Positions 15,700 through 64,000 of a stretch of 64,000 nucleotides of DNA are shown piece after piece. Source of the DNA: Candidatus Hydrogenedens sp. (lineage in GTDB: Bacteria; Hydrogenedentota; Hydrogenedentia; Hydrogenedentales; Hydrogenedentaceae); contig JBMFRC010000001.1 of NCBI GenBank assembly GCA_049968235.1, positions 224,001 through 288,000 of the forward strand, in the 5' to 3' direction. Made by a program: the position numbers and the translations under genes. The notes under the pieces are model-generated. The model did no database searches. It worked only from the letters and a program-made list of their open reading frames with translations, and had not been told where the DNA came from. Every line of letters starts with the position of its first letter. Position 1 is the stretch's first letter.

Positions 15700-15800
15700 A
15701 TTAAATAAACGAATTTTACGCCCAGGCGAACGGCGCCTTTTATGGTTTTGTCGCTCCCTTGTGGTTTATTCCACTTAAATCGCCAGTTGCGACACATAAA
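15700..15800 (-). promoter_or_regulatory. GC-rich structured 5' leader of gcvT, candidate (single-aptamer?) glycine riboswitch
   Basis: The minus-strand RNA is …CAACUGGCGAUUUAAGUGGAAUAAACCACAAGGGAGCGACAAAACCAUAAAAGGCGCCGUUCGCCUGGGCGUAAAAUUCG…. It contains a P2-like hairpin GUGG…CCAC, then AAGGGAGC (compare CGAAGGAGCAA), then GGCGCCG…CGCC, then CUGGGCGUAAAA (compare CUCAGGCAAAAGGAC). This GC-rich island lies 80-160 nt upstream of a gcv operon in an otherwise AT-rich spacer. Confidence 0.35.
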
Positions 15801-25647: not shown

Positions 25648-26583
25648 TTATAAACCGGCTCTTTTCTTAAAATCGAATAGTTGAGGAGCATGAAATTCTG
25701 AAGAAAATTCTTGAATCCTTTTATTTGCTAAATTTACATAACTTTCGTTTATGTCATATCCGACATAATGTCGGGCAGTTCTTATTGCTGCAATTGCTGT
25801 CTGTCCACTTCCAATAAACGGGTCTAAAATAACTTCCCCTTCAAAGGTATAAAGTTGAATTAATCTGTAAGGTAGTTCTATAGGGAAAGGAGCGGGATGC
25901 CCCACCTTCGTTGCTTGTTCAGCAGAGAAAGACCAAACACTTTTTGTAAACTCGAGGAATTCTTCTTTTGAAATAGTATCTTTCCTATTTAGATTTCCTC
26001 TGCTGAATGTACCTTTGGAAAAAACCAGGATATACTCATGAATATCTCTAAGTGTCGGATTTTTTGCTGAAAGCCAACTTCCCCATGCAGTTGAAGGGCT
26101 ACCACTGGAATTTTTATTCCAAATAATTTCACCCCGCATTAAAAATCCCAAATCAAGCATATCTTCAATGATAAAAGTGTGTAATGGGATATATGGCTTT
26201 CTCCCAAGATTGGCAATATTAATACATACTCTACCTCCAGGAACCAATACCCTTTTAACTTCTTGCCATACCCTTTTTAAGAATTGTCTATATTCCCTTA
26301 AGGTAAGATTTTTGTCATATTCTTTACCAACATTATAGGGAGGAGAAGTAACCATCAAATGGATACTATTTTCTGGTAACTCCTCCATGTTTTCACTTGA
26401 TTTACAAAATATTTTATCTATAACTTCAATGGGAACGGAATTCTCAATATATTCAGATTTTTTTTCTTTAGGCAGTCCTTCATACAATTTACTTGCATAA
26501 AACGAAGTAGCATCATGATTTATTCTTCCGGGCGAACCGAAAGCACTTGTTTTTGTGCCATTTTTCCTTCGGTTAATTTCCAT
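25648..26583 (-). CDS. DNA methyltransferase, N4/N6 family, beta-class (SPPY motif, likely N4-cytosine or N6-adenine)
   Basis: Catalytic motif IV LMVTSPPYNV precedes the SAM motif I ILDPFIGSGQTAIAA, which is the beta-class order. Confidence 0.8.
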   Translation of the reverse strand: MEINRRKNGTKTSAFGSPGRINHDATSFYASKLYEGLPKEKKSEYIENSVPIEVIDKIFCKSSENMEELPENSIHLMVTSPPYNVGKEYDKNLTLREYRQFLKRVWQEVKRVLVPGGRVCINIANLGRKPYIPLHTFIIEDMLDLGFLMRGEIIWNKNSSGSPSTAWGSWLSAKNPTLRDIHEYILVFSKGTFSRGNLNRKDTISKEEFLEFTKSVWSFSAEQATKVGHPAPFPIELPYRLIQLYTFEGEVILDPFIGSGQTAIAAIRTARHYVGYDINESYVNLANKRIQEFSSEFHAPQLFDFKKRAGL

Positions 26584-26787
26584 CTATTCCTCCTTCCACA
26601 TGTCAATCCACCTTTTATATGAATTATACTTTATCGCTATCTTTTGCCAATGTATTTCAATCTTTTTGGTTTGTTTATGGTAAAGTAATTTTGACAGTGC
26701 CTCTTTAGAAAGTTCAACCCCTCTTGGATTAGTTCCAGGTTTCGGAAGTTTAATATAATTTTTTCTCCCCATTTCATCAAAAATCAT
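26584..26787 (-). CDS. Small ORF translationally coupled to the methyltransferase (possible 3' part of a split restriction enzyme or controller)
   Basis: Its TAG stop abuts the MTase ATG (…TAGATG…). The 67-aa product is basic. Confidence 0.3.
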   Translation of the reverse strand: MIFDEMGRKNYIKLPKPGTNPRGVELSKEALSKLLYHKQTKKIEIHWQKIAIKYNSYKRWIDMWKEE

Positions 26788-26798
26788 TCTTTGAACAC

Positions 26799-27215
26799 TT
26801 AATGGAATATAGTAAAACCACCTTCAGCATTCCAATTAATTTGAACAAGTAGCATATCGCAGTAAGGATAATATTTGTTAAGGAATTCTTTTGCTTTCTC
26901 AGAATCAACTGTCCATACAAGTTTAACTCCTCCTAAATTCTTTCCTGTAATCGTTTTCATAGATATCGGCTCACCAAACAATTTGACATCTACTTCTGGC
27001 TCAGTAACAGGAATTTCAGTCTCTACATTATTCTCCCCAAATTTATAAATAAGTAAAGCCACTATTATTTTTTCTCTAACCGAGCCAACCTCCATCCCAA
27101 TTTTACCCGCTCTTGAACTTTCCATATCTGCAATTTGAAATAAGTGAGGTAATCTTTTCTTTATCTTTTCTACAAGTATTTTATCTTCAAAAAGTTTTAA
27201 TAATTGTTCTGACAT
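26799..27215 (-). CDS. Hypothetical protein, candidate restriction endonuclease (N-terminal part?)
   Basis: 138 aa, directly upstream and co-directional with the MTase. It contains an E…D-x-K-like stretch (TEPEVDVKLFGEPISMK). It is in a different frame from the following 67-aa ORF, separated by an 11-nt gap. Confidence 0.3.
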   Translation of the reverse strand: MSEQLLKLFEDKILVEKIKKRLPHLFQIADMESSRAGKIGMEVGSVREKIIVALLIYKFGENNVETEIPVTEPEVDVKLFGEPISMKTITGKNLGGVKLVWTVDSEKAKEFLNKYYPYCDMLLVQINWNAEGGFTIFH

Positions 27216-29139: not shown

Positions 29140-29532
29140 ATGCTTTGCCCAAATTGTAAAAAACAAATACTTCTTATCATGGAATACAATCAGATTGAAC
29201 TGGATTTTTGTCCGGAATGTTTAGGTGTCTGGCTCGATGCAGAAGAATTGCAATGGATATTAGGTGCCAATTTTGACGAACAAAGTTTATTCACAACATC
29301 TACAATTAACGAAGTAAAGAAAAAATGTCCCCGTTGCAGAAGCAATATGCATAAAGTTTTCCTTCCCGAAAATAATCAGGTCATTTACGATACCTGCCCC
29401 AATCAACATGGTTTCTGGTTTGACCGTGGCGAATTAGAAATACTCATTCATAGCCTTTCCGAATTTCCCGGTACACATTCCTTTCTTCAATGGCTCACTG
29501 AAGTTTTTGCCTACTCCAAAAAGGAAAAATAA
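29140..29532 (+). CDS. Double zinc-ribbon protein (zf-TFIIB/YfgJ-like)
   Basis: Two repeats of CPxC…(17 aa)…CPxC…W(L/F)D…EL (MLCPNCKK…CPECLGVWLDAEEL and CPRCRS…CPNQHGFWFDRGEL). Confidence 0.6.
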   Translation: MLCPNCKKQILLIMEYNQIELDFCPECLGVWLDAEELQWILGANFDEQSLFTTSTINEVKKKCPRCRSNMHKVFLPENNQVIYDTCPNQHGFWFDRGELEILIHSLSEFPGTHSFLQWLTEVFAYSKKEK

Positions 29533-29789
29533 TCTGATTCCTTTGAGTAAAACAACAAAAGAAATCTTCTTGTAAAATTAAAATAACTGCCTCTTCCCTA
29601 TCTCCATCATTTTAATTCTAATCCTATTCATCCTGTTACTTATTTTTATCCATCTTAACGAAGTTTTGCACACTGAATATCAAGATAAAATTTGTGTATA
29701 AAGAAAACCCGTTTTACACATTGTTTTTTAATAAAAATAAGAAACGATTTGCATGGAAAACTATAGATTTTTTGTAACTTTTCCCCTAT

Positions 29790-29866
29790 TTATCCACAGA
29801 TTATCCACAGGTTTTCAAAAGCATTATCCACGATATTCTGAACAATTTTTCCACATTTTATTCACC
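29790..29866 (+). promoter_or_regulatory. Cluster of 4-5 same-orientation DnaA boxes
   Basis: TTATCCACA at 29790-29798 and 29801-29809 (both perfect). TTATCCACg at 29824-29832. TTtTCCACA at 29847-29855. Weak TTATtCACc at 29858-29866. Confidence 0.55.
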
Positions 29867-29871
29867 TAATA

Positions 29872-29887
29872 TTACTATATATTGTAT
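29872..29887 (+). promoter_or_regulatory. Possible NrdR box
   Basis: ttaCtAtATaTtGtat matches the acaCwAtATaTwGtgt palindrome core at 12/12. It lies between the DnaA boxes and the -35 element. Confidence 0.3.
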
Positions 29888-29906
29888 ATTGGGAATAAAA
29901 TTCTAC

Positions 29907-29935
29907 TTGACATTGTGTCCTGTTTGTTATAAAAT
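29907..29935 (+). promoter_or_regulatory. Sigma-70-type promoter for nrdD (TTGACA-17-TAAAAT)
   Basis: cTTGACAttgtgtcctgtttgttaTAAAATag. Perfect -35 hexamer, 17-nt spacer, 5/6 -10 hexamer. About 165 nt upstream of the nrdD ATG. Confidence 0.5.
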
Positions 29936-30098
29936 AGTTTTATCTTTTTTGTTTTCTATGAAAATTTAATCAAACAGTAGTTAGCCCTCCTAAATCTTAC
30001 CCGAAGGCAAAAAATAACCTTATTTTTTGGGGATATTAGATTTGGGTGATAAAATTAAAGTTTAAATGAATAAAAGTTTAATTTAGGGAGCGTAGGCT

Positions 30099-32237
30099 AT
30101 GCAGAATTGGGAAATAAGTTCGGCTGAGATTTTTACAGACTTGGTTCCGTTCACGCATGTATTGAAGAGAGATGGGCGAAAGGTTCCTTTCTCTGCAGGA
30201 AAAATAACCCAAGCCATCTTAAAGGCAGGAAAAGCCACCGGTGAATTTGGGATAGATATTGCCCGTCGTTTAACTCTTCGTGTATTGGCACTTTTGCAAA
30301 CTATGCCATTAGAAGGACATCCCACTGTTGAAGAAATTCAGGACGCGGTGGAAGAGATTTTATTAATGTCACCATTTAAGAAAACCGCTAAGGCATATAT
30401 TCTTTATCGTGACCAGCATGCTCGCATCCGTGAGATGGTCAATAAAGCGGATGTAGATTTGATTGACCGCTATCTTGAAAAGATGGACTGGAAAGTTCAG
30501 GAAAACAGTAATATGGCATATTCCCTCCAGGGTTTGAACAATTATATTTCCAGTGAAATTAGCAAGGTATATTGGCTTAACAAAATCTATACACCAGAAG
30601 TACGAGAAGCACATCGTTCGGGAGACTTGCATCTACATGACCTTGGTTTGCTATCGGTATATTGTGTAGGCTGGGATTTGCAAGATTTGCTATTAAATGG
30701 CTTTCAGGGAGCACCGGGAAAAGCAGAGAGCAAGCCTGCCAAACATTTCCATACAGCATTAGGGCAGGTTGTTAATTTCTTTTATACCTTACAGGGTGAA
30801 GCGGCAGGGGCACAGGCTTTTAGCAACTTTGACACTCTTTTAGCACCTTTTATCCGTTATGATGGTTTAAATTATCGTGAGGTAAAGCAAGCACTACAAG
30901 AGTTTATTTTTAATTTGAATGTAGCAACACGGGTTGGTTTCCAAACTCCATTTACGAATGTTACATTGGACTTACAACCACCTGCCAATTTAGCCAATCA
31001 GCCTGTTATCATTGGTGGGGAATATCAAGATGCCACATATGGTGAGTTCGCAAACGAAATGAAACTATTTAATTCGGCGTTTCTTGAGGTTCTTTCCGAA
31101 GGAGATGCAAAAGGACGAGTATTTAGTTTTCCAATACCTACTTACAATATTACTAAAGATTTTAACTGGGATGACCCGGACCTTGTCCGTTTATGGGAAG
31201 TAACGGCAAAATATGGCATTCCGTATTTTGCCAATTTTATCCATTCCGATATGTCCCCTTGTGATGCCCGTTCGATGTGTTGTCGTTTACGGCTGGATTT
31301 GCGTGCATTAGAACGAAGAGGCGGTGGGCTTTTCGGGGCAAATCCATTAACAGGGTCCATCGGTGTTGTTACCATCAATATGCCTCGAATTGGCTACTTA
31401 TCTGCGAATGAGGATGAATTTTTTGAACGATTTGATAATTTGATAAATATTGCCCGCACCAGTCTCGAAACGAAGCGGAAGGTGCTTGAACAATTAACAG
31501 ATAACGATTTATATCCATACACGAAATTCTACCTGCGTAATGTATATCAACGATATAACCATTACTGGAACAATCATTTCTCTACTATTGGTCTGATTGG
31601 TATGAATGAAGCATGCCTGAATCTCCTTGGAAAGGATATTGGCACTTCAGAAGGCTTAGAATTTGCAATCCGAGTACTGTACCATGCCCGAAACCGGTTA
31701 AGAGAATTCCAACAGGAAACAGGTAATTTGTATAACCTTGAAGCAACTCCTGCTGAAGGGACCAGTTATCGTCTTGCTCGTCTGGATTATGAACGCTATC
31801 CGGATGCCCATTTTGCGAATACGGAACAACTCCGAAATGGTAGTGTCCCATTTTATACCAATTCTACACAATTACCTGTAAATTATACCGATGATATTTT
31901 CAAAGTGCTTGAGTTACAGGACCCACTACAGACACAATATACCGGTGGTACGGTTCTGCACATCTTTTTAGGGGAATCGGTAGCCAATCCTAATGCGGTC
32001 AAGGCATTTGTAAAAAAGGTATGTGAAGGGTATAAACTTCCTTATTTTACTTTAAGCCCCAGTTTTACAGTGTGCCCACAGGATGGATACATTCATGGCG
32101 AATTTCCATCATGTCCCAAATGTGGAAAAGAAACAGAGGTTTATTCGCGTGTTGTGGGTTACTTGCGACCTATAAGTCAATGGAATGAAGGGAAACGGGC
32201 AGAATTTGAACTGCGAGTAAGATATAAAATTGATTAA
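30099..32237 (+). CDS. nrdD: Anaerobic ribonucleoside-triphosphate reductase
   Basis: N-terminal ATP-cone-like region. C-terminal Zn site CPKCGK. Glycyl-radical motif (…SRVVGYLRP…). 712 aa. Confidence 0.92.
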   Translation: MQNWEISSAEIFTDLVPFTHVLKRDGRKVPFSAGKITQAILKAGKATGEFGIDIARRLTLRVLALLQTMPLEGHPTVEEIQDAVEEILLMSPFKKTAKAYILYRDQHARIREMVNKADVDLIDRYLEKMDWKVQENSNMAYSLQGLNNYISSEISKVYWLNKIYTPEVREAHRSGDLHLHDLGLLSVYCVGWDLQDLLLNGFQGAPGKAESKPAKHFHTALGQVVNFFYTLQGEAAGAQAFSNFDTLLAPFIRYDGLNYREVKQALQEFIFNLNVATRVGFQTPFTNVTLDLQPPANLANQPVIIGGEYQDATYGEFANEMKLFNSAFLEVLSEGDAKGRVFSFPIPTYNITKDFNWDDPDLVRLWEVTAKYGIPYFANFIHSDMSPCDARSMCCRLRLDLRALERRGGGLFGANPLTGSIGVVTINMPRIGYLSANEDEFFERFDNLINIARTSLETKRKVLEQLTDNDLYPYTKFYLRNVYQRYNHYWNNHFSTIGLIGMNEACLNLLGKDIGTSEGLEFAIRVLYHARNRLREFQQETGNLYNLEATPAEGTSYRLARLDYERYPDAHFANTEQLRNGSVPFYTNSTQLPVNYTDDIFKVLELQDPLQTQYTGGTVLHIFLGESVANPNAVKAFVKKVCEGYKLPYFTLSPSFTVCPQDGYIHGEFPSCPKCGKETEVYSRVVGYLRPISQWNEGKRAEFELRVRYKID

Positions 32238-32275: not shown

Positions 32276-32887
32276 ATGAAAATTGGTGGTTTTCAGCCAT
32301 TTTCCTTATCCGATTTTCCCAATTGTGTATCTGCAATTGTTTTTACTCAAGGTTGTAATTTCCGTTGCCCTTTTTGTCATAACCCATCATTAGTACTGCC
32401 TGAGTTATTCTTACCGCCTATTCCTGAAGAAACGCTGATTGCATTTTTAAATGAACGAAAAGGAAAGTTAGATGGAGTTGTAATTACAGGTGGAGAACCC
32501 ACAATACAATCAGATTTGATGAAGTTCGTGAGTGAAATTAAGGGATTGGGTTATAAAGTAAAACTTGATACAAACGGTTCAAATCCCCAACTGATAGAGG
32601 AATTAATTCACAATAATCTCATTGACTATTTCGCTATGGACATTAAAGCACCGTGGCACAAATATACAGATTTAACAGGAGTAGATGCTAATATCGATTT
32701 GATAAAGAAAACTATGATGATATTATTACATAGTTCTATCCCTTGTGATTTTCGTTTAACCTATGCAAAACCTTTGTTGAACGAAAACGATATTCAAGAA
32801 GTGCAATCCTACCTCCCCCAAAATTGCTCTTTAATCATTCAAAATTTTATCAAGGAAAGAGCATTAAATCCCACTATTTTTGAGTAA
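32276..32887 (+). CDS. nrdG: Anaerobic ribonucleotide reductase activating protein (radical SAM)
   Basis: CxxxCxxC cluster (GCNFRCPFCHN). Glycine-rich SAM motif VVITGGEP. Sits immediately downstream of nrdD. Confidence 0.85.
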   Translation: MKIGGFQPFSLSDFPNCVSAIVFTQGCNFRCPFCHNPSLVLPELFLPPIPEETLIAFLNERKGKLDGVVITGGEPTIQSDLMKFVSEIKGLGYKVKLDTNGSNPQLIEELIHNNLIDYFAMDIKAPWHKYTDLTGVDANIDLIKKTMMILLHSSIPCDFRLTYAKPLLNENDIQEVQSYLPQNCSLIIQNFIKERALNPTIFE

Positions 32888-61925: not shown

Positions 61926-62417
61926 TTAGCAAACGGGAGGGGCATGACAGAGAAAGCCTGTTAGAAAGTAAGGTTCTGTTTTAAGTCTGCGACCTCTATC
62001 CTCCGGGATAGGGGACAAACGAGTGGCTTTGTACTCTGTTTCTTTGACAAAACCTGAATAAGGCTTGAAAATGTTACCTTTGCAAAAATTGGATATTGAT
62101 TGGCTATTAACTTGAACAAAAGCGACAGGAACCTGTGACCTCTTTCCCTGCCATTTCTTTTCCAACCGATTAAATAAAATCTGTAAATCTATAACATCAA
62201 TCTTATTGTCTCCATTCTGGTCTCCTATAGAAGCAAGAGAATTTCTCTGGAGTAGGGAATGCTGAAGTAAATTCAGGTCCAGAATGTCAATTTTCCCATC
62301 AAGATTTAAATCACCCGTTTTGTAATCACAAACATTTTGATTGGATAAACAAAAGGCGAACAACACCCCGCAGGAAAGAAGTAAATAAAATATTTTCTTG
62401 CCAATTAAAAACATCAT
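61926..62417 (-). CDS. Small secreted dockerin-domain protein
   Basis: Signal peptide, then GDLNLDGKIDILDLNLLQHSLL…GDQNGDNKIDVIDLQILFNRL (two dockerin repeats). Confidence 0.6.
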   Translation of the reverse strand: MMFLIGKKIFYLLLSCGVLFAFCLSNQNVCDYKTGDLNLDGKIDILDLNLLQHSLLQRNSLASIGDQNGDNKIDVIDLQILFNRLEKKWQGKRSQVPVAFVQVNSQSISNFCKGNIFKPYSGFVKETEYKATRLSPIPEDRGRRLKTEPYFLTGFLCHAPPVC

Positions 62418-62437
62418 TTGAGTCTTTTTATATTTGA

Positions 62438-62483
62438 CATATCACTAATTTTCTTATTTACATATCACTAATTTTCTTATTTA
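62438..62483. repeat. Perfect tandem duplication of a 23-bp unit (catatcactaattttcttattta x2)
   Basis: Copy 1 at 62438-62460. Copy 2 at 62461-62483. Lies in the leader/promoter region immediately upstream of the minus-strand dockerin/cohesin cluster. Confidence 0.8.
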
Positions 62484-62667
62484 ATTATACACTATTTAAA
62501 TAACATTTTGAAATTTTTTTGTAACATTTTTCGTTCATATTAGTAAAATAATAGAGAATAGGTTCTTTGAAAATTGAATATTAAGGTAATGAAGCAAGAG
62601 TTTTTAATATCCCTTCCTTACCTCTCTCCTTATAAATAAATCTTCCCTTAAACTCTCTTCATATCCT

Positions 62668-62750
62668 GGGCGTCATCGTTTCCCTTCCACAATCGCCAAG
62701 TAGAATTACATGCAAAAAATGCATACTCATTAAATTACATGATGACGCCC
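62668..62750. repeat. 83-bp element bounded by perfect 10-bp inverted repeats (GGGCGTCATC … GATGACGCCC) with internal AATTACATG direct repeats, followed by a T-tract
   Basis: Arms at 62668-62677 and 62741-62750. Internal repeat aattacatg occurs twice. Followed by ttcctttttc. Confidence 0.5.
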
Positions 62751-63066
62751 TTCCTTTTTCAACTTTCGAAACATTCCATTCGCCAACATCAATGTTTTAT
62801 ATTTCTACGGTGTCATTTATACTAATACTATATTAAACCTTTTAGGTTTCGTATTCGTATTTGTATCATTACATCAAAAGATAAAAATGTATTTTTTGTG
62901 TCATGTAGGGGGTAAATCATCATTCGCCTAAAAAAATATAATATTGGCATGAACCTGTTTTAAAAGATTAGGGAAATAAATGGTAACATTGAATCACATG
63001 GATGAATAATAACCCGTAACTTTTCCATAGTAGGGATAAAGTATTGGGGTTTATCGATTGTATTCT

Positions 63067-64000
63067 TTATTTATCTGTTTGTGGGGTATAACGGAAAGGA
63101 ATAATTGTAAATGCCATGTCGGATTGAGGAAGTAAATCCGCAAAGAAAATACCGTGTGCTTCTTTTATCAGTAATCGTCGTCCACATACATGACACATAT
63201 ATTCGGAGCCTGGTTCAATATCCTCTGCAATCTTGATATGGGTACTACAGAATGGGCAAGCAAGACTGCGACTATCTCGTTTGTGGTAATCTTGAAGTAG
63301 CGAATGAATTTTTCCCATGTTATATGCTTCTATCAGGGCATCTACCATTTCAGGGTCTAATTGGCTACTCTTTGCGGATATAATTTTTTCGATAGCAATT
63401 TCCGGGTCTAACCCTTTTCGGTAAGGACGATTGCTGGTCATGGCATCCAGCGTATCTGCAACCGCTATTAATCGTCCTTCAGGTGGAATTTCTTTACTCT
63501 TCAACCCATAAGGGTAGCCTTTCCCATCGTATCGTTCATGGTGATATAGACAGTAAGGAATAATCGGCTGGAATAATGCAATGTCTCTCAGTAAATCGGC
63601 TCCTCGTAGGGGATGTATTTTCATTTTTTCAAATTCTTCATCAGTCAATTGCCCTGGTTTTCTCAGGATAGCATCATCTACTGCAATTTTACCGACATCA
63701 TGTAGCACACCTCCCATATATACTTCTTCTATTTTTTCTTCGGACCAACCTAATACTTTCGCTATCTCTATAGCGAAATTTGTTACCCGCCATGTGTGTC
63801 CTATTGTGTAATGGTCTCGCAATTCTACTGCATTAGCAATAGTTGTCAATGTGTCTTTATAACTTTGCTTTATCATTTCGATATATTGTGCGTTACGAAG
63901 GGCTATTGATGCGGGTCCTGCTATAGCCACCAGCATCTCAAGGTCTTCTTGACTGAAAGCACGAGAGGTCCCTCGCGTATCTACATAAATTACACCTAAA
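63067..64000 (-). CDS. HD-GYP phosphodiesterase with C-terminal zinc-ribbon, N-terminal part outside window
   Basis: HD domain (HTWRVTNFA…GGVLHDVGK…) and HHERYDGKGYP (the GYP signature). C-terminal CPFC…CHVCG zinc ribbon. The reading frame continues to the window edge. Confidence 0.75.
   Translation of the reverse strand, partial: LGVIYVDTRGTSRAFSQEDLEMLVAIAGPASIALRNAQYIEMIKQSYKDTLTTIANAVELRDHYTIGHTWRVTNFAIEIAKVLGWSEEKIEEVYMGGVLHDVGKIAVDDAILRKPGQLTDEEFEKMKIHPLRGADLLRDIALFQPIIPYCLYHHERYDGKGYPYGLKSKEIPPEGRLIAVADTLDAMTSNRPYRKGLDPEIAIEKIISAKSSQLDPEMVDALIEAYNMGKIHSLLQDYHKRDSRSLACPFCSTHIKIAEDIEPGSEYMCHVCGRRLLIKEAHGIFFADLLPQSDMAFTIIPFRYTPQTDK

What the first reader, a model, noticed from the sequence alone, without database searches (positions are those of the whole stretch)
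29779..29940. Four tandem consensus DnaA boxes immediately upstream of a near-consensus promoter for nrdD
Two perfect TTATCCACA nonamers and two one-mismatch boxes lie within 66 bp, all in the same orientation. A fifth, weaker box follows. Next come a 12/12 core match to the NrdR-box palindrome, then TTGACA-17-TAAAAT. This architecture is the one known for DnaA control of aerobic nrdAB in E. coli, but here it is applied to the anaerobic class III reductase. Alternatively, the 540-bp AT-rich spacer could be a replication-origin-like element located away from dnaA.
Basis: partly seen in the sequence, partly recalled or inferred. Interest (0 to 1): 0.6.

Follow-up and report, generated by a model that had tools for sequence, protein, structure and literature searches.

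The report
DnaA-box array upstream of nrdDG
A conserved row of evenly spaced DnaA binding sites, followed by a paired NrdR repressor site and a strong promoter, sits in front of the anaerobic ribonucleotide reductase genes of an uncultured Hydrogenedens bacterium; it looks like an elaborate version of a control already known in E. coli, not a replication origin.

Summary
The four boxes belong to a phased array of eight DnaA-box-like 9-mers (29779-29866, steps of 11-12 bp, all on the + strand). Three more boxes lie 60-115 bp upstream. After the array come a canonical pair of NrdR boxes (29872-29887 and 29903-29918, 15-bp gap; box 2 contains the -35), then TTGACA-17-TAAAAT, a leader of about 155 nt, and nrdD-nrdG.

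The layout is conserved in every Hydrogenedens-clade relative I could fetch. The conservation profile inside the units matches the known degeneracy of the DnaA box (TTWTNCACA).

The flanking genes differ between genomes. Orientation-corrected GC skew shows no polarity switch at the array in any of six genomes. No dnaA or dnaN lies nearby. The oriC alternative is therefore not supported.

DnaA binding upstream of nrdD is already shown by ChIP-seq in E. coli (PMC11317965), and NrdR control of nrdDG is established, so dual control of a class III reductase is not new. What is new is the phylum and the unusually long, oriC-like phased array upstream of the promoter. No binding or expression data exist. 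Whether the genome encodes nrdR could not be checked.

Verdict: new member of a known kind, modest interest.

The parts
29664..29672 (+). Upstream DnaA-like box TTTTGCACA (fits TTWTNCACA)
   Evidence: The TTT.CAC core is invariant across 11 aligned relatives.
29693..29701 (-). Upstream DnaA-like box TTATACACA, the only box in inverted orientation
   Evidence: GTGTATAA is conserved in A2.
29712..29720 (+). Upstream DnaA-like box TTTTACACA
29779..29866 (+). Phased array of eight DnaA-box-like 9-mers separated by 2-3 bp. Starts are 29779 (TTTTCCCCT, weak), 29790 (TTATCCACA), 29801 (TTATCCACA), 29812 (TTTTCAAAA, weak), 29824 (TTATCCACG), 29836 (TTCTGAACA, weak), 29847 (TTTTCCACA) and 29858 (TTATTCACC).
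   Evidence: Sequence. TRF finds period 11. Per-unit orthologues and the conservation profile are: box positions 1, 2, 4, 6, 7 and 8 score 0.85-0.93; positions 3, 5 and 9 score 0.68-0.74; spacers score 0.56. In relatives the weak units read TTTTCCACA, TTATCAACA, TTATCCTCA and TTTTGAACA.
29872..29887 (.). NrdR box 1, TTACTATATATTGTAT (13/16 to acaCwAtATaTwGtgt; the core is 12/12)
   Evidence: Identity is 0.94 across relatives. L009/L046 (ACTATATGTAGT) and L022/L033 (ACTACATATAGT) carry substitutions that are reverse complements of each other, which indicates a palindromic constraint.
29903..29918 (.). NrdR box 2, CTACTTGACATTGTGT (11/16), exactly 15 bp after box 1. It contains the -35 hexamer.
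   Evidence: The pair sum of 24 is the single best pair in 64 kb. Identity is 0.99. The TTGTGT part lies beyond the -35 and is invariant although a sigma-70 promoter does not need it.
29907..29935 (+). Sigma-70-type promoter TTGACA-17-TAAAAT. An A/T-rich, UP-like block GGGAATAAAATT lies just upstream (29891-29902).
   Evidence: 11/12. The block is nearly invariant, including L003 and L004 (82-83% NrdD identity).
29943..30098 (+). Predicted 5' leader of nrdDG, about 155 nt. It holds a conserved TGAAAATTTAATC block (29958-29972), lineage-specific GC-rich hairpins, and the conserved Shine-Dalgarno region AGGGAGCGTAGGC.
   Evidence: No Rfam family matches. There is no consensus fold. The fold z-score is -1.0. 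The transcription start is inferred from the -10, not mapped.
30099..32237 (+). nrdD, class III anaerobic ribonucleoside-triphosphate reductase with an N-terminal ATP-cone
   Evidence: Pfam NRDD 1.3e-199 and ATP-cone 2.2e-22. NCBIfam PRK08270 scores 1050 bits.
32276..32887 (+). nrdG, radical-SAM activase of NrdD
   Evidence: NCBIfam TIGR02495 (NrdG2), 7.7e-61.

Best explanation
This is the control region of the nrdDG operon of a Candidatus Hydrogenedens-like bacterium.

Proposed mechanism:
1. A sigma-70 promoter (-35 at 29907-12, -10 at 29930-35) is overlapped by a canonical two-box NrdR operator. [quoted passage not shown]
2. Five bp upstream of NrdR box 1 begins an 88-bp array of eight same-oriented DnaA boxes spaced 2-3 bp apart, with strong and weak sites roughly alternating. 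Three more boxes lie further upstream.
3. DnaA, most likely as a cooperative DnaA-ATP oligomer, would fill this array. That would tie nrdDG transcription to the initiation potential of the cell.

Shown here: the sequence elements, their non-random clustering, their phasing, their conservation with a DnaA-type information profile, their linkage to nrdDG rather than to a chromosomal position, and the absence of origin signatures.

Inferred: that DnaA and NrdR actually bind, and the sign of the DnaA effect. The proximal box lies at about -85 to -77 from the predicted start. That position favours activation or anti-repression of NrdR over occlusion of the promoter, but this is only a guess.
For: - Cluster statistics.
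- Phasing: unit steps of 11, 11, 11, 12, 12, 11, 11 bp, and TRF period 11. A 2-3 bp spacing in direct orientation is what E. coli DnaA requires for stable binding to double boxes and to low-affinity oriC sites (PMC11317965).
- Conservation: the array is present upstream of nrdD in all 10 distinct close relatives (NrdD 90-96% identity) and in L003 (83%).
- Footprint: the conserved and variable positions within units reproduce TT-W-T-N-CAC-A.
- Specificity: in about 215 kb of clade DNA, the only clusters of >=3 boxes per 200 bp are the ones at nrdD.
- NrdR pair: it is the unique best pair in the window and in each relative's locus. The 15-bp gap and the overlap with the RNA polymerase site match characterised operators (PMC12176259). 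Orthologous nrdD genes in L003, L007, L036, L038, L039 and L048 carry textbook pairs.
- Precedent: E. coli nrdD binds DnaA in vivo and carries an NrdR pair.
- Independent recurrence: 10 of 16 Patescibacteria-like nrdD loci have a TTWTCCACA box within 250 bp upstream, about 100-fold enriched.
Against: - There are no binding, expression or transcription-start data for this organism.
- Neither dnaA nor nrdR is in the window or in any fetched locus, by signature-motif scan only. Whether the genome encodes NrdR is untested.
- NrdR box 2 matches only 11/16, and its conservation is confounded with that of the -35.
- Eight to eleven boxes is far more than characterised DnaA-regulated RNR promoters have. 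The array may therefore have an additional or different role.
- nrdD relatives at 63-71% identity have NrdR pairs but no DnaA boxes. The DnaA input is therefore lineage-specific, not obligatory.
Confidence: 0.65

Rival explanations
1. The AT-rich intergenic region is the chromosomal replication origin (oriC), or an origin-like unwinding element, that happens to lie next to nrdD.
For: It has up to 11 DnaA boxes in about 200 bp. Eight are phased like the low-affinity arrays of E. coli oriC. Two very AT-rich stretches adjoin the boxes (29721-29778 at 20.7% GC and 29867-29906 at 17.5% GC). A run of four trio-like triplets (3'-GAT TAT AAT GAT-5') starts 10 bp after box 29847-55, which meets the loose BUS search rule of PMC8287927.
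Against: - Skew: after correcting for gene orientation there is no GC or GC3 skew step at the array in the window (t=0.6-1.0) or in L031, L032, L033, L044 or L054. The background skew is uniform across the locus and has opposite signs in different genomes (GC3 -0.20 in L031, +0.16 in L032). The locus therefore sits inside a replichore, in either orientation.
- Synteny: both flanks differ. The window has a Zn-ribbon gene plus a sulfatase; L001 has xseA; L002, L009 and L022 have a GFO/IDH/MocA oxidoreductase. The array stays with nrdDG throughout.
- No dnaA, dnaN or other origin-linked genes occur in 64 kb.
- The trio run occurs in 35% of shuffles and is absent in 7 of 10 relatives.
- The 'DUE' is a conserved palindromic NrdR pair plus a promoter.
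Confidence: 0.03
2. The array's main job is to control DnaA itself, not to regulate nrdDG. It would act as a datA-like or B. subtilis DBC-like cluster that titrates or inactivates the initiator, and its position next to nrdDG is secondary.
For: Box number and density resemble datA (five high-affinity boxes) and the six B. subtilis clusters outside oriC. Some of those clusters both regulate neighbouring genes and restrain initiation (PMC3245932; PMC4447404). This is the only such cluster in about 215 kb of clade sequence.
Against: The array keeps a fixed distance, orientation and helical phase relative to the nrdDG promoter while everything around it is rearranged. That argues for selection on promoter function. 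Box number drifts between close relatives: an 11-bp unit is lost in L029 and L044, and L054 has only three good boxes. The two roles are not mutually exclusive, and sequence cannot tell them apart.
Confidence: 0.12
3. The repeats are not DnaA sites. They are either operators for another factor that recognises TCCACA-type repeats, or a tandem repeat with no function that happens to resemble DnaA boxes.
For: No protein-binding data exist. The 11-bp unit behaves as a slippage-prone tandem repeat (TRF; unit loss). The organism's DnaA specificity is unknown.
Against: A neutral repeat would not keep box positions at 0.85-0.93 identity while the spacers fall to 0.56. It would also not place its variable positions exactly at the W and N of TTWTNCACA. 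Two units are perfect matches to the near-universal consensus TTATCCACA. The same 9-mer recurs upstream of nrdD in unrelated Patescibacteria-like loci and in E. coli.
Confidence: 0.08

Closest known systems
E. coli nrdDG regulatory region (DnaA + NrdR + FNR)
   Same: It controls the same operon. It has a canonical NrdR pair with a 15-bp gap at the promoter (GCACTATATATAGACT-15-ACCCAATATGTTGTAT). It has DnaA boxes, including a double box with a 2-bp spacer, that are bound in vivo (PMC11317965).
   Different: In E. coli the DnaA boxes lie downstream of the promoter in the leader, just before the ATG, in the opposite orientation, and there are only three. Here 8-11 boxes lie upstream of the promoter and none is in the leader. 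No FNR-type sites were recognised here.
E. coli nrdAB promoter (DnaA boxes upstream of the -35; DnaA-ATP acts as a switch; Augustin 1994 and Olliver 2010, as cited in PMC11317965)
   Same: DnaA boxes lie directly upstream of the core promoter of a ribonucleotide reductase operon that is also under NrdR control.
   Different: It has two closely spaced boxes rather than a phased array of eight. It controls a class Ia enzyme. It has additional Fis and IciA inputs (PMC4009431).
B. subtilis DnaA-box clusters outside oriC, e.g. the sda promoter
   Same: These are multi-box arrays outside oriC (seven at sda) that bind DnaA cooperatively. The sda array strongly prefers ATP-DnaA, and DnaA directly activates sda transcription (PMC4447404; PMC3245932).
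   Different: The target genes differ. The B. subtilis clusters mostly lie near oriC. Some of them affect initiation, which is untested here.
E. coli datA
   Same: It is a non-origin cluster of high-affinity DnaA boxes.
   Different: datA acts on DnaA (titration, ATP hydrolysis). It is not organised as a phased array abutting a promoter and a second regulator's operator.
oriC arrays of closely spaced low-affinity DnaA sites / the basal unwinding system (BUS)
   Same: Boxes are same-oriented with 2-3 bp spacers, and strong sites anchor weaker ones. An AT-rich segment lies downstream of the boxes.
   Different: There is no skew switch, no conserved origin synteny and no conserved DnaA-trios.

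Membership tests
DnaA-box cluster / DnaA-regulated promoter | Several 9-mers matching TTATCCACA (TTWTNCACA), clustered beyond chance | tested here: met
   Two perfect boxes, two with one mismatch, and six relaxed matches lie within 192 bp. In 100 simulations the largest cluster was 2.
DnaA-box cluster / DnaA-regulated promoter | Boxes arranged as direct repeats 2-3 bp apart (the requirement for stable DnaA binding in E. coli, PMC11317965) | tested here: met
   All seven spacers in the eight-unit array are 2 or 3 bp (criterion).
DnaA-box cluster / DnaA-regulated promoter | Purifying selection with the information profile of a DnaA box | tested here: met
   Positions 3, 5 and 9 are variable, positions 1, 2, 4, 6, 7 and 8 are conserved, and the spacers are least conserved, across nine distinct genomes.
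DnaA-box cluster / DnaA-regulated promoter | DnaA occupancy and an effect on transcription | not testable with these tools
   This needs EMSA, footprinting, ChIP or reporter assays.
DnaA-box cluster / DnaA-regulated promoter | The genome encodes a DnaA with canonical domain IV | not testable with these tools
   No dnaA was found in the window or in the 87 loci by motif scan.
NrdR operator | A 16-bp palindromic box matching acaCwAtATaTwGtgt | tested here: met
   Box 1 matches 13/16 with a 12/12 core and ties for the best score in 64 kb. The consensus is as quoted in PMC4009431.
NrdR operator | Two boxes separated by 15-16 bp | tested here: met
   Box 2 (11/16) lies at a gap of exactly 15 bp. 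The pair sum of 24 is unique in the window. 16-mers scoring >=11 make up 0.14% of the window.
NrdR operator | Overlaps the RNA polymerase binding site of an RNR operon | tested here: met
   Box 2 contains the -35 TTGACA of the nrdDG promoter.
NrdR operator | The genome encodes NrdR (Zn-ribbon plus ATP-cone) | not testable with these tools
   NrdR is not in the window. The upstream Zn-ribbon ORF 29140-29532 has no ATP-cone. The motif scan was negative.
Chromosomal origin oriC | A DnaA-box cluster in an AT-rich intergenic region | tested here: met
Chromosomal origin oriC | GC-skew polarity switch (cumulative minimum) at the site | tested here: not met
   There is no orientation-corrected step in the window or in five relatives. 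The background skew is uniform and its sign differs between genomes. The test is limited to 10-34 kb on each side.
Chromosomal origin oriC | Conserved origin-flanking genes or synteny (dnaA, dnaN and the like) | tested here: not met
   The flanks differ among genomes. There are no replication genes in 64 kb.
Chromosomal origin oriC | DnaA-trios and an unwinding element next to the boxes | tested here: inconclusive
   A run of four trios is present in the window, but 35% of shuffles do as well and 7 of 10 relatives lack it.
datA / DBC-type DnaA-control locus | A high-affinity multi-box cluster outside oriC | tested here: met
datA / DBC-type DnaA-control locus | Affects initiation frequency or the nucleotide state of DnaA | not testable with these tools
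   This needs genetics or biochemistry.

The most novel reading that the evidence does not exclude
The eight-unit, helically phased array of roughly alternating strong and weak boxes is an oriC-like scaffold for DnaA-ATP oligomerisation, transplanted to a promoter. It would serve two roles. As a switch, it would read DnaA-ATP rather than total DnaA, displace or counteract the adjacent NrdR tetramer, and so fire nrdDG at initiation. As a datA/DBC-like sink, it would feed back on initiation. If so, dNTP supply and the initiator's activity would be wired together through one DNA element in a candidate phylum, and perhaps more widely, given the DnaA boxes at Patescibacteria-like nrdD genes.
Probability: 0.12. 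Interest if true: 0.55.

Novelty: new member of a known kind. Interest (0 to 1): 0.3.

Why it matters
It extends the link between the replication initiator and dNTP synthesis to an uncultured phylum (Hydrogenedentota) and, in passing, to Patescibacteria-like genomes. DnaA control of nrdAB is known in E. coli, and DnaA binding upstream of nrdD was shown there by ChIP-seq in 2024. This suggests that DnaA input to ribonucleotide reductase promoters is ancient or arises repeatedly.

The long phased array is a natural substrate for studying DnaA oligomer formation away from an origin.

There is also a practical point. Box-density criteria alone would flag this region as oriC in fragmented MAGs, so it is a useful cautionary case for origin prediction.

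Tried and rejected
- Rfam, whole window at gathering threshold and 29500-30150 at E<=10: nothing in the region.
- nrdD leader as a riboswitch or attenuator: no terminator-like site, z=-1.0, and RNAalifold finds no consensus pairs. It is not claimed as a structure.
- Exact look-up of the window's NrdD in the assembly index: not on record. The source genome could not be extended.
- Signature-motif scans for DnaA (RDHTTV, GKTHL) and NrdR (MxCPxC...DSR) in six frames of the window and of all 87 loci: negative. This is a crude test and does not prove absence from the genome.
- The upstream 130-aa Zn-ribbon ORF as an NrdR candidate: rejected, because it has no ATP-cone.
- oriC at 29.8 kb: rejected on skew and synteny.
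- DnaA-trio/BUS pattern: met only loosely, not significant and not conserved.
- A possible skew switch near 55 kb was looked at. No DnaA boxes or replication genes are there. It is left unexplained.
- I could not fetch the dnaA/oriC region or an nrdR gene of any Hydrogenedens genome.

Full report
**What is in the sequence.**
The window comes from a Candidatus Hydrogenedens-like genome: its NrdD is 96% identical to that of Ca. Hydrogenedens terephthalaticus. ORF 30099-32237 is a class III ribonucleotide reductase with an ATP-cone, and 32276-32887 is its activase. The intergenic region upstream is 566 bp and 27.6% GC, against 38.5% for the window.

- two perfect TTATCCACA boxes (29790, 29801)
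- TTATCCACG (29824)
- TTTTCCACA (29847)
- a weaker TTATTCACC (29858)
- the exact NrdR core ACTATATATTGT (29874-29885)
- TTGACA-17-TAAAAT (29907-29935)

**The cluster is larger and more regular than described.**
Reading the sequence in 11-12 bp steps gives eight units. They start at 29779, 29790, 29801, 29812, 29824, 29836, 29847 and 29858, and every spacer is 2 or 3 bp. TRF reports period 11.

Three units are weak in the window: TTTTCCCCT, TTTTCAAAA and TTCTGAACA. Their orthologues in relatives read TTTTCCACA, TTATCAACA or TTATCCTCA, and TTTTGAACA. Three further boxes fitting TTWTNCACA lie at 29664 (+), 29693 (-) and 29712 (+).

Six of the window's 21 relaxed matches fall within 192 bp. No Markov simulation exceeded two boxes per 200 bp, and Poisson P is about 1e-11.

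**Conservation.**
I fetched NrdD relatives from the genome and metagenome collections. All ten distinct loci with 90-96% NrdD identity carry the array at the same distance from nrdD and in the same orientation. So does L003 at 83% identity.

Within the units, positions 1, 2, 4, 6, 7 and 8 are 0.85-0.93 identical, positions 3, 5 and 9 are 0.68-0.74, and the spacers are 0.56. This matches the degeneracy of the classical DnaA box TT(A/T)TNCACA, so selection acts on something with DnaA-box specificity.

L029 and L044 have lost exactly one 11-bp unit. In about 215 kb of clade DNA, the only clusters of three or more boxes per 200 bp are these.

**The NrdR site is a canonical pair.**
Box 1 (29872-29887) scores 13/16 against acaCwAtATaTwGtgt. 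Box 2 (29903-29918, CTACTTGACATTGTGT) scores 11/16 and lies exactly 15 bp downstream. The summed score of 24 is the single best pair in 64 kb, and the orthologous pair is the best in every relative's locus.

Two 16-bp boxes 15 bp apart that overlap the polymerase site are what characterised NrdR operators look like (PMC12176259). Box 2 contains the -35. Its TTGTGT half is invariant although the promoter does not need it.

L009/L046 and L022/L033 carry box-1 variants that are reverse complements of each other (ACTATATGTAGT and ACTACATATAGT). That is the signature of a palindromic constraint. More distant nrdD loci (L003, L007, L036, L038, L039, L048) have textbook pairs.

The block from box 1 to the -10 is 0.94-0.99 identical. 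The leader is 0.68 identical and the sequence upstream of the array 0.67.

**Is it an origin?**
I regressed per-gene GC and GC3 skew on gene orientation and on the side of the array.
- There is no step at 29.8 kb in the window (t=0.6-1.0), and none in L031, L032, L033, L044 or L054.
- The orientation-independent background skew is uniform across each locus, and its sign differs between genomes (GC3 -0.20 in L031, -0.12 in L044, +0.16 in L032). nrdDG therefore sits inside a replichore, in either orientation.
- The flanking genes differ: a Zn-ribbon gene plus a sulfatase in the window, xseA in L001, and a GFO/IDH/MocA oxidoreductase (plus a hemerythrin in L009) in L002, L009 and L022. The downstream genes differ too. 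The array travels with nrdDG.
- No replication gene occurs in the 64 kb.
- A DnaA-trio-like run (3'-GAT TAT AAT GAT-5') follows box 29847. Runs this long arise in 35% of shuffles, and 7 of 10 relatives lack it (rule from PMC8287927).

The origin reading is therefore not supported. The skew evidence covers only 10-34 kb per side.

**Comparison with what is known.**
DnaA control of RNR is established for E. coli nrdAB. For nrdD, DnaA sites were predicted in 2007, and binding was shown by ChIP-seq in 2024 at a double box, tTTAAGAACAggTTATCCACAg (PMC11317965). The same paper shows that DnaA needs pairs of boxes 2-3 bp apart, as at the low-affinity oriC sites. The array here has that spacing throughout.

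I read the E. coli region directly. Its NrdR pair sits at the promoter, as here. Its three DnaA boxes sit in the leader, next to the ATG, in the opposite orientation. The Hydrogenedens layout (array, then NrdR pair and promoter) is closer to nrdAB. In box number it is closer to B. subtilis clusters such as the sda promoter, which has seven boxes, a strong ATP-DnaA preference and direct activation (PMC4447404). Some such clusters also restrain initiation (PMC3245932).

**Mechanism proposed.**
NrdR would repress by occupying box 1 and the -35-containing box 2 when dATP is high. This is inferred from characterised NrdR.

DnaA would fill the phased array cooperatively, with the weak units probably requiring DnaA-ATP. 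From a position ending about 77 bp upstream of the predicted start and 5 bp from NrdR box 1, it would modulate polymerase recruitment or NrdR binding. Sequence cannot give the sign of this effect.

I put 0.65 on "DnaA-bound array regulating nrdDG together with NrdR", 0.12 on a primarily datA/DBC-like role, 0.08 on a non-DnaA or non-functional repeat, and 0.03 on oriC.

**Novelty and score.**
The phylum is new, and so are the conserved, unusually long phased array upstream of the promoter and the recurrence of DnaA boxes at nrdD in Patescibacteria-like genomes. I rate it a new member of a known kind, interest 0.3.

Noticed in passing
L008, L011, L012, L049-L053, L055-L057, L064, L069, L070 (upstream of nrdD): In Patescibacteria-like nrdD loci (NrdD 56-60% identical to the window's), 10 of 16 distinct loci carry a single TTWTCCACA box within 250 bp upstream of nrdD. 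That is about 100-fold denser than in the other 163 kb of these loci. The box often directly abuts a TTGAC -35, and no NrdR pair is present.
   Followed up: partly
window 54770-55602 and the genes to the right (55603-63936): Orientation-corrected GC skew changes sign near 55.2 kb (side effect +0.077, t=4.3; GC3 +0.099, t=4.1). The 833-bp AT-rich intergenic region there has no DnaA boxes. Its neighbours are an Ig-like surface protein of 1822 aa, an amylase and cohesin/dockerin genes. The cause is unknown: it could be an inversion, an acquired island or chance, because only about 9 kb lies to the right.
   Followed up: partly
window 29943-30098: The leader of nrdD is about 155 nt long. It carries GC-rich hairpins that differ between lineages (window CCUAAAUCU/AGAUUUGGG; L046 CCCGCU..AGAAG/CUUCU..AGCGGG) and a conserved block TGAAAATTTAATC (29958-29972). 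There is no Rfam match, no consensus fold and a z-score of -1.0, so its function is unknown.
   Followed up: partly
window 15713-15800 (-): A ZMP/ZTP riboswitch (Rfam RF01750, 64.6 bits) lies upstream of a gcvT-gcvH-gcvPA-gcvPB-folD gene row (15639 down to 10286, - strand).
   Followed up: no
window 25648-27215 (-): A restriction-modification pair. The N6/N4 DNA methylase (25648-26583) is intact. The ThaI-like endonuclease ORF (26799-27215) covers only profile positions 1-128 of 203 and is followed by a separate 67-aa ORF (26584-26787), so it is probably frameshifted.
   Followed up: no
L029 and L044, aligned to window 29801-29811: These two relatives lack exactly one 11-bp unit (TTATCCACAGG) of the array, as expected from repeat slippage. 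L054 has degenerated to about three good boxes.
   Followed up: yes
L043 and L045, about 300 bp upstream of nrdD: In two MAG contigs an ORF whose C-terminus looks like NrdR (…AYIRFASVYRDFQDVESFEKEV) ends just before nrdD. Their genome-collection counterparts (L005, L006) are labelled 'uncultured archaeon'.
   Followed up: no
window 29140-29532 (+): A 130-aa protein with two TFIIB-type zinc ribbons lies directly upstream of the regulatory region. It has no ATP-cone, so it is not NrdR. It was not seen at this position in the relatives whose upstream ORFs I scanned with Pfam.
   Followed up: partly
L003 2635-2740: The more distant Hydrogenedentota relative (83% NrdD identity) has its own phased run of boxes (ATATCCACA, TTTTCCACA, CTTTCCACA, TTTTCCAAA ... 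AAATCCACA, CATCTCACA, TTATTCACA). Its NrdR pair (TCACAATATATAGTAT-16-ACACCCTATATTGGGA) lies wholly upstream of the -35. The window clade therefore appears to have lost about 20 bp and moved box 2 onto the -35.
   Followed up: partly
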